From: Ginglymostoma cirratum
Taxonomy: Eukaryota
NCBI GenBank assembly: GCA_024137785.1
Contig: JAHRHZ010000130.1
Coordinates: 1,337,520-1,374,535, forward strand
DNA: 37,016 bases
Direction: 5' to 3'
The position numbers are program-made. Below are positions 15,001 through 18,000 of the stretch, one piece after another. Every line of letters starts with the position of its first letter. The first letter of the stretch is position 1.

Positions 15001-18000
15001 TTATATTTTAAGATGAAACACTTATTGGTGCAAATGCAAGAGGAGGAAATGATGCGGTGGTATTTACACTACACTAATAATTCAGAAGCTGAGGACTTGG
15101 GTTCGAATCCTACCATGGCAGATGGTGCAACTTGCATTCAATAAAAAAAATCTGGAATTAAGAGTCTAATGGTGACCACGAAAACATTGTCGATCGTTGG
15201 GGGAAAACTCATTTGCTTCACTAATGTCCTTCAGGGAAGGAAACTGCCATCCTTGCCTCGTCTGGCCGCCATGTGACTCCAGACGCACGGTAGTGTAATT
15301 AATTGTTAACTGCCCTCTGGGCAGTAAAAGCTGACTTAGCCAGCGACGCCTCCCCTCCCGTGAATGAATTTCAAACAAACGCGTTTTTGGCAAAGAAACA
15401 GATACATTTTAAACTCATCATTAACTTAATTCTGTCTCTTTCTTGATCAAATTAAAAGAAAAAAGAAGCCTTTAAACAAATGATACGCCAAATCTCTCAA
15501 ACAATCTGCAACAGTACAGGTTTTCTCATAGTTGGTGCTGCAGCAATTCAAAGGGGAAGCGGTGAGATTTGATACACGTAAATAGCATTCGGCTGAACCG
15601 TGCAGTGTCGTCAAACGTATACAGTTCGGTCGAAGTGTCAATATTTTGCATCGAGAATTGTTCAGCGTGAATTGGAATAACAGCCTAAAGTCAGGTAGCT
15701 GAAATTCAACGATCAGTTTATTCAGGGAAGGTTACTTTAAAGTGGAATGAAACTTTTAGCAATGGAAGCCGTCGGACAATGAGTGATGTTATTCCTTAAG
15801 TTTTTCACGTCCCAAAGCAAATATCATTGTTTTTACTCATAAGTAAATCAAATGTTGCAATTCTTCTATATTCTATTCCACAAACAGGGAGCAAAGGGAA
15901 GAATAAAAACGTACAGGTTTATAACACCTTTAAGTGCCTCGGAGTACCCCACTTGCTCTGTCTTGCAACAATGAAAACTTTTTAAAGAAATATACTAACA
16001 AACTGCTGCCTGGGGAACCACTCTGTGAAATTGCCACCGTGCGAGGGATGAAACCGCATTGCAATGAATAACGAGAAAATTTCCTTTCGTAATGTTGGCA
16101 GATGGTAAGTATTGGTCCTGATCATTGACAAAGTTTCCCAGGAACTTGAACATTGTTGTATAAAAGCATGTTCGGTCATCTGAGTGAAACTGGACACTGA
16201 ATACAGTACGTATTTACTGGGAATGTACGTGCTCGCGCCGAATCAACTTTCAACTGATCATTTTTGGAAAAACTATATTTAATTCCAAACAATCAAACAC
16301 CAATTAAGCAACGTTTTTAGAAATATTCGCTGAGCACGGATTACTGATGGTTAACAAATTTATCTCCAGCTGGATACGACAGGAACGCAGAGGAGGAGTC
16401 AAACTGTTGCAGGGGAGACCTGTGACTCCGAATCTCCCACCTCTCTCTCTCTCTGTTTCTAGTATCAGACTCCAACCAGTATAAATAGCGGAATGGTTCC
16501 GCTCCATGTTCACAATCAAGAGGGATTGTTCCGACATTGAGTCGCATTCTCTACTCAGTTGTGCCAAGAGACGAGACAATGCAACTGATCCCGTGCCTCT
16601 GCTTTTTGCTGTCTTGTTTCACCCGTGAGTGTTATTTACAGTATAATAACGCAAAGAAGTGTGCTTAGGATATTCTATTATAGTTTTTGTTTTTGCTTGC
16701 TATCTAATGTTATTGTATGTTTCATTTACTTACAGATGTCCGATCCAATATCGTGTTAAACCAGTCACCTCCTGTGTCGGTAAAGCGTGGAGAATCTCAT
16801 AAACTGTCCTGTTCAGTGTCGGGGTTCAGTCTTGACAGCCACCATGTGCATTGGCTTAAGCAATTTCCCGGGAAAAGGTTGGAGTGGCTCCTTGCTTATA
16901 GAAATCCTTCAGATACCAATTATTACGCGCCTGGAGTCGAAGGCCGAATCATTCCTTCAAGGTCCTCCTCTACAGCCTACATTGAGATCAAAAGTTTCAG
17001 ACTCGAAGACACCGCCATTTATTACTGTGCAAAAGATGCACAGCAGCTCAACTAAGCCCAGGGTGCATAAAAATACCGAGGAAGATAATTGCATTGAATC
17101 GTAGGTGAGTACTTATTACACGTATTTGCAATTAGATGGAAAGATGCTCGAGTTAAAGCAATACAGTGGCAAAGAATAGTAAAGATGTTAATTAGGTTCG
17201 TATGGAGAGGGAACATGCTTCTGGTTATATTATTCACTGCTGACGACTGGATGTCAACTGAAAAAGATTATTACATAGCTGAGGATAACTTTGGTCGAAA
17301 ACTCTGCCGCCAAATAAACCTCACAGTTAGACTATGGTCAAAATATATTGAGCTGCTGTAATTTATGTGACTATATTTCTAACATCTGCAATTATTCAGT
17401 CAGCATAGTATTTATATGAGGTCTTATTACTGTGGTACAGCTCTCTTGACAGCTGGGGACAAGGAACCATGGTGACGGTGACTGCAGGTAAGAAACATGT
17501 TTTATTCGTGTCCTGCTTGATTTGTGACATTATTTCATATTTATGTTTGTTTTCACAATTACTATGCGAACTAAACAGTTCAGTTGTTTGATGCTATGCT
17601 TACAATAATGCTTTTTGCTATGCTACAAGGTGATACTACCATTTCACTGCACCTCTAAATTTTAAGAAAATAGTTACGGAGATATTGAGAGTCTGGTTGA
17701 GTGATTTGCCACTTATTTGCTGTTGAAACATTTTACCTGGCTTACTTCACACACTTGAATTTTTGATAGCAGTTCGGCGTTTCTGACAAGTTTCTAAACT
17801 TGGAGACCTCTGATTGCTGCAAGCTATCTGATAAAGTCATAACATATGTTTAACAACGTTGAAACTAAATTTTAGAATGATATCTAAATGCTTTCAAGGT
17901 CTAAAAATTAATACAGAGATCTTAAATTAATTTTTTTGCTAATTAAATTGCAAGAGATTAATACGAGTTTGATGAGTATTGATTTTAATAAAGGAAATAC

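What the first reader, a model, noticed from the sequence alone, without database searches (positions are those of the whole stretch)
16579..17038. IgW-like V domain linked in the germline to an IgM constant region
Seen: mature N-terminus NIVLNQ, FR2 WLKQFPGKRLEWLL, YAPGVEGRIIPS after CDR2, and an FR3 about 2 residues shorter than a standard VH. From recalled sequences these match elasmobranch IgW V motifs (VRS-xIVL, LEWLL, YAPGIxGRFxPS) better than conventional shark IgM VH, whereas all four C exons, the tailpiece and the TM are clearly mu. The VH-VL interface residues (Q39, L45, W47, WGQG) and the Cmu1 Cys are kept, so it should still pair with light chain. Inference: an ancient V(W)-C(mu) chimeric cluster. 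It may be the orthologue of the known monotypic divergent VH family of horn shark and nurse shark, in which case the V itself is not new but its D-less genomic layout may be.
Basis: partly seen in the sequence, partly recalled or inferred. Interest (0 to 1): 0.68.

Follow-up and report, generated by a model that had tools for sequence, protein, structure and literature searches.

The report
Shark-type IgM cluster without D segments
This is an intact cartilaginous-fish IgM heavy-chain gene cluster whose V segment can join directly to its J because no separate D segments lie between them; whether the V is of the IgW kind could not be tested here.

Summary
Positions 16579-17038 hold an unrearranged VH gene segment: leader exon, 111-nt intron and V exon, with every quoted motif present. 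Its FR3 is 2 residues shorter than human VH3.

A 23-spacer RSS abuts the V. A J-bearing element with a 12-spacer RSS lies 396 bp downstream, and no D element lies between them. Downstream are four C1-set exons, a mu-type secretory tailpiece, a poly(A) signal and a mu-like TM exon. This is one complete IgM minilocus of about 17 kb.

Best reading: a rearranging IgM cluster that needs only one 12/23 joining step. It has the layout of the "2R" states (V-DDJ or VD-DJ) described in nurse-shark lymphocytes. Partial germline joining of this general kind is known in cartilaginous fish.

The central inference, an IgW-lineage V on a mu constant region, could not be tested. No open tool held chondrichthyan V sequences, and the key papers were not held.

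Verdict: an ordinary-to-moderately interesting new member of a known kind. Interest 0.3.

The parts
16480..16488 (+). TATA-like box (TATAAATAG), 91 bp before the ATG (99 bp start to start); likely V promoter
   Evidence: Read directly. No exact octamer ATGCAAAT/ATTTGCAT lies nearer than 5644 or 24694. No 1-mismatch octamer lies in 15823-16578.
16579..16624 (+). Leader exon (MQLIPCLCFLLSCFT plus the first base of the next codon)
   Evidence: The donor GTGAGT starts at 16625.
16625..16735 (+). Leader intron, 111 nt, GT...AG
16736..17038 (+). V exon (H-VRS / NIVLNQ ... YYCAKD), an unrearranged VH gene segment
   Evidence: One search gives the translation. Pfam V-set, E 2.6e-13. VH domains are the best PDB matches, with a 2-residue FR3 gap in 8 of 8 printed VH alignments.
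17039..17077 (+). V recombination signal: heptamer CACAGCA, 23-bp spacer, nonamer AAAAATACC
   Evidence: Signals of this quality occur 3 times in 73,942 positions.
17078..17406 (+). Intersegment DNA, 329 bp, with no D element
   Evidence: A lenient scan (at least 4/7 heptamer, at least 5/9 nonamer, spacers 11-13 and 22-24, both strands) finds no pair of signals flanking a short coding core.
17407..17434 (+). J-side recombination signal: nonamer AGTATTTAT, 12-bp spacer, heptamer TACTGTG (CACAGTA / ATAAATACT when read from the coding border)
   Evidence: Signals of this quality occur 2 times in 73,942 positions. No 22-24 spacer alternative was found.
17435..17487 (+). J (or trimmed D-J) coding element, ..YSSLDSWGQGTMVTVTA, followed by the donor GT at 17488
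   Evidence: The nurse-shark JH2 primer printed in PMC2435157 matches 15 of 16 bases here.
25913..26212 (+). Cmu1 exon (with the early Cys, LLSSCEQP)
   Evidence: One search gives phase-1 AG/GT borders. C1-set, E 6.4e-10..
27565..27876 (+). Cmu2 exon
   Evidence: C1-set, E 2.3e-18..
29457..29765 (+). Cmu3 exon
   Evidence: C1-set, E 2.7e-09. In one search the best stretch falls on the Cmu3 part of human IgM Fc chains.
30272..30663 (+). Cmu4 exon with secretory tailpiece (..[20 protein letters not shown], then stop). An internal donor for the membrane form follows 30601 (G|GTAAAC).
   Evidence: C1-set, E 3.3e-22; 102.8-bit alignment to Cmu4 plus tailpiece.
30692..30697 (+). AATAAA poly(A) signal for the secreted form
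33499..33626 (+). TM1 exon (acceptor at 33499, or alternatively 33508; ..NIWTTASMFISLFFLSIFYSAAVTLVK, donor GTGAGC). TM2 was not located.
   Evidence: In one search, 6 of 7 PDB hits are membrane IgM, aligning to the TM helix.

Best explanation
The finding is the V gene segment of one complete, apparently functional cartilaginous-fish-type IgM heavy-chain minilocus.

The layout is: TATA box, leader, intron, V exon, 23-spacer RSS, 329 bp of spacer DNA, 12-spacer RSS, J-bearing element, an 8.4-kb intron, Cmu1-Cmu4 with secretory tailpiece and poly(A) signal, then a TM exon.

How it works:
- There is no free D, and the two signals are complementary (23 and 12).
- A single RAG-mediated deletion of 396 bp would therefore join V to the J element.
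- Junctional trimming and addition would supply all CDR3 diversity. A blunt join is out of frame by sequence.
- The product would splice to Cmu1-4 as secreted or membrane mu and pair with a light chain.

What is shown: the anatomy, the open frames, the splice sites, the signals and the mu identity.

What is inferred:
- The cluster is used.
- The D-less state arose by RAG-type joining in the germline (V-DDJ or VD-DJ), which left a 12-spacer signal on the J side.
- The V is a mu-cluster VH, conventional or of the divergent family, rather than an imported IgW V.
For: Anatomy and frames.

V-set and C1-set domains.

VH rather than VL: (78 versus 18-20 bits).

Mu identity:
- Cmu4 plus tailpiece, 102.8 bits.
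- 6 of 7 TM hits are membrane IgM.
- internal TM donor.
- AATAAA 29 nt after the stop.

Only one V and four C exons lie in the 37 kb.

Signals sit exactly at the coding borders and are rare elsewhere: 3 and 2 per 73,942 positions.

No D-type signal pair lies between them.

Distances fit published nurse-shark clusters.
- Intersegment distances there are about 400 bp; here the distance is 396 bp.
- The '2R' configurations V-DDJ, VD-DJ and VDD-J give about 809-832 bp from leader intron to JH; here it is about 840 bp (passages of PMC2435157).

Partial germline joining (VD-J, VD-DJ, VDJ), ascribed to RAG activity in germ cells, is described in reviews and in Lee et al. 2000 (passages: PMC5192425; PMC4279169; PMC2193156).

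Horn-shark clusters are about 18-20 kb (abstract of PMC2191167). Here the span from ATG to the end of TM1 is 17,048 bp.
Against: - No D-derived bases can be demonstrated. Only 19 nt lie 5' of the J Trp codon, within the range of a plain J, and the V ends just 4 bases (GATG) past the codons for C-A-K. A cluster that simply lost or never had D is therefore not excluded.
- That ordinary shark JH carries a 23-spacer signal is my recall. The passages I could read state it only for mouse.
- Both signals are imperfect: heptamer 5/7 and nonamer 7/9 at V, and 6/7 and 6/9 at J.
- No octamer lies upstream of the V, and no expression data were available, so function is inferred from intact frames only.
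- V-DDJ is not among the germline forms named in the reviews I read.
- The V lineage was not tested at all.
- The nurse-shark VH probe primers V18-1 and V18-2 do not match this V within 4 mismatches. This could mean species distance or a divergent V.
Confidence: 0.65

Rival explanations
1. One reading: an ancient chimeric cluster in which a V of the IgW lineage was placed, in the germline, in front of a mu constant region.
For: - The quoted motifs and the short FR3 are really there.
- The nurse-shark VH probe primers, said to cross-hybridise with all nurse-shark VH (passage of PMC2435157), do not match this V within 4 mismatches.
- IgM, IgW and IgNAR clusters are linked in elasmobranchs, and V transfer between linked loci is proposed for IgNAR (PMC12227049, section 6).
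- Somatic association of IgW V with IgM C is reported (passage of PMC4279169).
Against: - No comparison with any IgW V was possible, so the resemblance rests on recalled motifs only.
- By my own recall, the same motif types occur in conventional shark mu VH.
- PMC12227049 states that the V(D)JC of each isotype cluster together without intermingling.
- The J matches a nurse-shark mu JH primer at 15 of 16 bases.
- The primer mismatch at V may just reflect species distance.
Confidence: 0.13
2. The V belongs to the divergent, 'monotypic' second VH family of IgM clusters known from horn shark. By my recall of Rumfelt et al. 2004, which was not seen here, this family has an orthologue in nurse shark. 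On this reading the V is old but known.
For: - A monotypic second VH family beside one large family is stated in the abstract of PMC2191167.
- The V differs from human VH3 by a 2-residue FR3 deletion.
- It does not match nurse-shark conventional VH primers.
Against: - No sequence of that family was available.
- The window holds only one V, so I cannot even say that this V is unusual for its own genome.
Confidence: 0.3
3. A primary V-J heavy-chain cluster. On this reading, D segments were lost by plain deletion or were never present, and the J has its own 12-spacer signal, as in light-chain clusters.
For: - The J coding length is that of an ordinary J.
- No surplus bases lie at the V end.
- The signals are complementary.
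- A 23-12 V-J state is drawn as ancestral in the scheme of PMC12227049 (Fig. 2 legend).
Against: - The 396-bp gap equals one standard intersegment distance. This is what RAG-type excision of the other intervals would leave.
- Germline joining is well documented in this group.
Confidence: 0.2
4. A silent or decaying cluster that is intact by chance or only recently inactivated.
For: - No octamer lies upstream.
- Both recombination signals are imperfect.
- Expression of joined horn-shark H genes was reported as not detected (passage of PMC2193156).
Against: - All seven coding exons that were located are open with canonical phase-1 splice sites. Poly(A) and TM signals are also present.
- Conserved Cys and Trp residues are kept.
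Confidence: 0.15
5. A somatic rearrangement intermediate or an assembly artefact that was captured in the assembly.
For: The layout equals that of somatic 2R intermediates seen in nurse-shark lymphocytes.
Against: - Somatic junctions are polyclonal and would not form a consensus (inference).
- There is no N or gap in the window.
- Clean signals remain on both sides.
Confidence: 0.03

Closest known systems
Partly germline-joined IgM clusters of cartilaginous fish (VD-J, VD-DJ, VDJ forms in horn shark, skates and others)
   Same: - Cluster organisation.
- Fewer than four separate rearranging elements in germline DNA.
- Remaining elements keep usable signals.
- One intersegment distance of about 400 bp is left.
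   Different: - Here the V end carries no demonstrable D bases and the J side carries at most about 8 possible ones.
- The state could be V-DDJ, which the reviews I read do not list as a germline form, or VD-DJ with heavy trimming.
Somatic '2R' intermediates (V-DDJ, VD-DJ) of nurse-shark IgM loci
   Same: Same element order and the same leader-intron-to-J span: about 840 bp here against 809-832 bp.
   Different: Those arise in lymphocytes. This one sits in what appears to be a germline assembly.
Nurse-shark IgM1gj
   Same: A mu-type cluster with restricted junctional diversity.
   Different: - IgM1gj is fully VDJ-joined and lacks Cmu2.
- This cluster is not joined at V and has all four C exons.
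Monotypic second VH family of Heterodontus IgM clusters
   Same: It may be the same lineage: a divergent VH tied to a mu constant region (abstract).
   Different: No sequence was available, so its segment layout is unknown to me.
IgW (IgD-like) clusters
   Different: - IgW heavy chains have six C domains (figure legend of PMC3149040), and their short secreted form has a different, cysteine-rich tail.
- Here there are four C exons with a mu tailpiece and a mu-like TM.
Shark light-chain V-J-C clusters
   Same: One V and one J about 400 bp apart, joined in a single step (PMC2435157, Fig. S13 legend).
   Different: - This V is VH-type, not VL-type.
- The constant region is four-exon mu.

Membership tests
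IgM (mu) heavy-chain cluster of cartilaginous fish | Four C1-set constant exons | tested here: met
   One search gives C1-set in all four ORFs. One search gives phase-1 splice borders. One search finds no fifth C exon in the window.
IgM (mu) heavy-chain cluster of cartilaginous fish | Secretory tailpiece with N-glycosylation sequon and penultimate Cys, continuous with the last C exon | tested here: met
   The sequence ..[24 protein letters not shown] aligns with the human-type mu tailpiece within a 102.8-bit match.
IgM (mu) heavy-chain cluster of cartilaginous fish | Membrane form made through an internal donor in Cmu4 and a downstream TM exon with a mu-like helix | tested here: met
   The donor G|GTAAAC follows 30601. 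For TM1, 6 of 7 PDB hits are membrane IgM. TM2 was not located.
IgM (mu) heavy-chain cluster of cartilaginous fish | Minilocus layout: one V and one J within 2 kb, with C a few kb downstream | tested here: met
   V to J is 396 bp and the J-Cmu1 intron is 8,425 bp. The published nurse-shark value is 6.3-6.8 kb.
IgM (mu) heavy-chain cluster of cartilaginous fish | VH-D1-D2-JH, i.e. two free D segments | tested here: not met
   No D-type signal pair lies in 17078-17406. This is why I file it as a partly joined or D-less variant.
Rearranging VH gene segment | Leader, short intron, V exon with Cys-Trp-Cys, closer to VH than to VL | tested here: met
Rearranging VH gene segment | 23-spacer recombination signal directly 3' of the V coding end | tested here: met
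IgW V lineage | Groups with IgW/IgX V sequences in a supported tree, apart from IgM VH | not testable with these tools
   No chondrichthyan V sequences were reachable. The PDB and the Atlas gave mammalian-type VH only.
   The motifs are present in the window. Their specificity for IgW rests on recall only. The peptide search of the paper library found nothing relevant.
Germline-joined (partly) Ig cluster | Fewer free elements than sister clusters, with signals of complementary spacer left at the open joint | tested here: met
   V 23-RSS and J-side 12-RSS, with one intersegment interval.
Germline-joined (partly) Ig cluster | D-derived or N/P bases recognisable at the fused joint | tested here: inconclusive
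   Only 19 nt lie before the J Trp codon and 4 nt (GATG) past C-A-K at the V end. No reference D or J was available to compare.
IgM1gj | Fully joined VDJ and loss of Cmu2 | tested here: not met
   The V and J are separate with signals, and the Cmu2 exon is present.

The most novel reading that the evidence does not exclude
This is a long-maintained, separate IgM subclass. Its V comes from the IgW or divergent lineage, and its cluster rearranges V directly to J like a light chain. It would give a short, restricted CDR3 and perhaps a dedicated early-life or innate-like role, parallel to IgM1gj but still RAG-dependent. It would also be a germline precedent for V exchange between the linked IgW and IgM clusters.
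Probability: 0.1. Interest if true: 0.6.

Novelty: new member of a known kind. Interest (0 to 1): 0.3.

Why it matters
If the layout is a germline V-DDJ or VD-DJ state, it adds one more example of RAG activity having reshaped Ig clusters in the germ line. It also gives a clean natural heavy-chain substrate that needs only one 12/23 step. That is useful for asking how much of shark CDR3 diversity depends on D segments.

If the V were shown to be of IgW descent, it would document a germline V swap between linked isotype clusters. The same kind of event is proposed for the origin of IgNAR.

As it stands, the cluster is a well-formed member of a known class and does not by itself open a new question.

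Tried and rejected
- **PDB search with the V and ESM Atlas search (after a busy answer).** Both returned only generic or mammalian VH clusters (best Atlas names 'V-set domain-containing protein' and 'IGHV3-23'). They say nothing on IgW versus IgM.
- **Full-text search for window peptides.** Of 47 papers, none of the 20 listed was relevant.
- **Attempts to read the primary shark papers.** The attempts were PMC420240 and its DOI, PMC2590587, PMC29333, PMC3190574, PMC3222143, PMC332511 and PMC3360817. None is held. PMC2191167 is held as abstract only.
- **Searches for a statement of shark IgH signal spacers, or of D-less or V-DDJ germline clusters.** I found no such statement in the passages I read, but the library lacks most of the relevant literature. 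This is not evidence that it is unpublished.
- **Nurse-shark primers from PMC2435157 against the window.** Only JH2 matched within 1 mismatch (15 of 16 bases); the best hits of three others (Int_G2, FAM4, V18-2), at 3-4 mismatches, lay outside the V gene, and five had no hit within 4. This is too little to place the V or the species.
- **Octamer search.** None lies near the promoter. The 1-mismatch count over the window (80) is not above shuffles (mean 67, 9 of 100 shuffles reach 80).
- **Rfam.** No matches.
- **A heptamer with nonamer-like flanks at 18929-18997 in the J-C intron.** No J-like or D-like coding lies beside it, so I take it for chance.
- **A perfect CACAGTG with 23-spacer and 7/9 nonamer inside Cmu3.** I take it for chance.
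- **Second cluster or stray Ig exon in the window.** None was found.
- **Structure prediction and complex prediction.** Not run, because they would not bear on the open question.
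Full report
**What is at the coordinates.**
- The stretch 16579-17038 is a complete, unrearranged VH gene segment on the + strand.
- The ATG at 16579 opens a 46-nt leader exon (MQLIPCLCFLLSCFT plus one base). It ends at a GTGAGT donor at 16625.
- After a 111-nt intron, the V exon runs from 16736 to 17038.
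- Its translation reads H-VRS, then NIVLNQSPPVSVKRGESHKLSC...HWLKQFPGKRLEWLL...YYAPGVEGRIIPSRSSSTAYIEIKSFRLEDTAIYYCAKD.
- Pfam calls it V-set (E 2.6e-13).
- Against all PDB chains the best matches are VH domains, at about 78 bits per domain. The VL domains of the same chain score 18-20 bits.
- In 8 of 8 VH-domain alignments printed, the query needs a 2-residue gap between ..PSR and ..STAY. FR3 is thus indeed two residues shorter than human VH3-type domains.
- I worked exon by exon throughout. The joined leader-V-J-C model was not built, searched or folded.

**The surroundings.**
- The window has no N and holds one Ig cluster only. tblastn of each exon against the window finds one V and four C exons, and no stray Ig exon.
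- Phase-1 AG/GT borders define Cmu1 25913-26212, Cmu2 27565-27876, Cmu3 29457-29765 and Cmu4 30272-30663. All four are C1-set.
- Cmu4 runs on into ..[24 protein letters not shown]. It aligns with Cmu4 plus tailpiece of a human-type IgM Fc over 123 residues at 102.8 bits.
- An AATAAA lies 29 nt after the stop.
- A G|GTAAAC donor inside Cmu4, after 30601, is followed 2.9 kb downstream by a TM exon at 33499 (or 33508) to 33626. Of that exon's 7 PDB hits, 6 are membrane IgM, aligned on the TM helix.
- Cmu1 to Cmu3 match IgH constant domains generally.
- From ATG to the end of TM1 is 17,048 bp. The abstract of PMC2191167 gives 18-20 kb for horn-shark clusters.
- I do not take the contig for human. 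It has a minilocus layout, and its J matches a nurse-shark JH primer at 15 of 16 bases.

**The D-less layout.**
- Directly after the V coding end comes heptamer CACAGCA, a 23-bp spacer and nonamer AAAAATACC (17039-17077).
- Directly before the J coding element (17435-17487..YSSLDSWGQGTMVTVTA, donor at 17488) comes nonamer AGTATTTAT, a 12-bp spacer and heptamer TACTGTG (17407-17434).
- Signals of these qualities are rare. They occur 3 and 2 times, respectively, in 73,942 strand-positions, counting the two real ones. Their placement at the coding borders is therefore not chance.
- In the 329 bp between them, even a lenient scan finds no pair of signals around a short core, so there is no D.
- The two coding ends are 396 bp apart.
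- Passages of PMC2435157 give about 400 bp for every intersegment distance in nurse-shark IgM loci. They give 809-832 bp from leader intron to JH for the twice-rearranged states V-DDJ, VD-DJ and VDD-J. Here that span is about 840 bp.

**How it most likely works.**
- A 23-spacer and a 12-spacer signal face each other, so one RAG-mediated deletion would join V to the J element.
- A blunt join is out of frame (one extra base on each side). Trimming and added bases would therefore decide productivity and supply all CDR3 diversity. The loop would be short, roughly AKD plus YSSLDS.
- Transcription would start near the TATA-like box at 16480.
- Splicing would give secreted or membrane mu.
- The residues at the VH-VL interface, the J WGQG and the early Cmu1 Cys are present, so light-chain pairing is expected.
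- Shown here: the anatomy, open frames, splice sites, signals and mu identity.
- Inferred: that the cluster is used.

**Where the D segments went.**
- Reviews and Lee et al. 2000 describe shark and skate H clusters that are partly or fully joined in germline DNA (VD-J, VD-DJ, VDJ). They ascribe this to RAG activity in germ cells (passages).
- The layout here is what V-DDJ, or VD-DJ with heavy trimming, would leave: one interval and complementary signals. I think this the most likely origin (about 0.55).
- The weak points are three.
  - No D-derived bases can be shown. Only 19 nt precede the J Trp codon, and 4 nt (GATG) follow C-A-K at the V end.
  - That ordinary shark JH carries a 23-spacer signal is my recall and was not found in the passages read.
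  - V-DDJ is not among the germline forms the reviews name.
- A cluster that lost D by plain deletion, or never had it, remains possible (about 0.2).

**The IgW claim.**
- The genome, phage, plasmid and E. coli collections hold no vertebrate DNA.
- The PDB and Atlas answers were mammalian-type VH.
- The papers that define shark VH families were not held.
- The only facts bearing on the claim are indirect.
  - The nurse-shark VH probe primers do not match this V within 4 mismatches. This may be species distance.
  - PMC12227049 states that the V(D)JC of each isotype cluster together without intermingling (section 6).
- From recall only:
  - The three motif types cited also occur in conventional shark mu VH.
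  - A divergent VH family orthologous to the horn-shark monotypic one was reported in nurse shark.
- I therefore rate an IgW-lineage V at about 0.13 and membership of the known divergent mu VH family at about 0.3. The remaining weight goes to a conventional VH of its species.

**Comparison with what is known, and verdict.**
- The closest known things are the partly germline-joined IgM clusters of horn shark and skates and the somatic 2R intermediates of nurse shark.
- It is not IgM1gj. That gene is fully joined and lacks Cmu2, whereas this cluster has separate V and J and all four C exons.
- It is not an IgW cluster. IgW has six C domains, and its short secreted form has a different tail.
- I file it as a new member of a known kind: a mu minilocus in a one-step-to-go state.
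- My searches for a printed description of a germline V-DDJ or D-less mu cluster found none in the passages I read. The library lacks most of the primary literature and supplements were closed, so I make no claim that it is unpublished.
- Interest is 0.3. The boldest reading not excluded is a maintained IgM subclass with an IgW-derived or divergent V that rearranges like a light chain. I give it probability 0.1 and interest 0.6 if true.

Noticed in passing
window 868-3154, - strand: A frame-broken non-LTR retrotransposon fragment. The ORF at 868-1662 matches RVT_1 (E 1.2e-23). The ORF at 2132-3154 matches Exo_endo_phos (E 1.2e-11).
   Followed up: partly
window 6061-6201, 21850-21990, 10279-10341, 14826-14868; also 21233-21361 and 36865-36993: Interspersed SINE-like repeat copies, 71-95% alike, in both orientations. 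One pair of 129 nt is 98% identical: one copy lies in the J-Cmu1 intron and one lies 3 kb past the TM exon. There is no Rfam match.
   Followed up: partly
window 15823-16578: No octamer (ATGCAAAT or its complement), exact or with one mismatch, lies in the 750 bp before the ATG. Only a TATA-like box is present, at 16480. This could mean a different promoter make-up or weak expression.
   Followed up: partly
window 16759-16767: An N-glycosylation sequon (N-Q-S) lies in FR1 of the V, within NIVLNQSPP.
   Followed up: no
window 18929-18997: A lone CACTGTG heptamer in the J-Cmu1 intron has nonamer-like runs 22 bp away on both sides. No J-like or D-like coding lies beside it. It is probably a chance or cryptic signal.
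   Followed up: yes
window 29642-29680: A perfect CACAGTG heptamer, 23-bp spacer and 7/9 nonamer lie inside the Cmu3 exon. It is the best-scoring signal-like site in the window. I take it for chance.
   Followed up: no
window 27567-27875: Among the PDB hits of the Cmu2 exon is the nurse-shark UrIg2 V-C1-C2-C3 chain (9dmx_A, 92.5 bits over three stretches). It was the only shark-derived chain I recognised among the entry names in the PDB listings.
   Followed up: no
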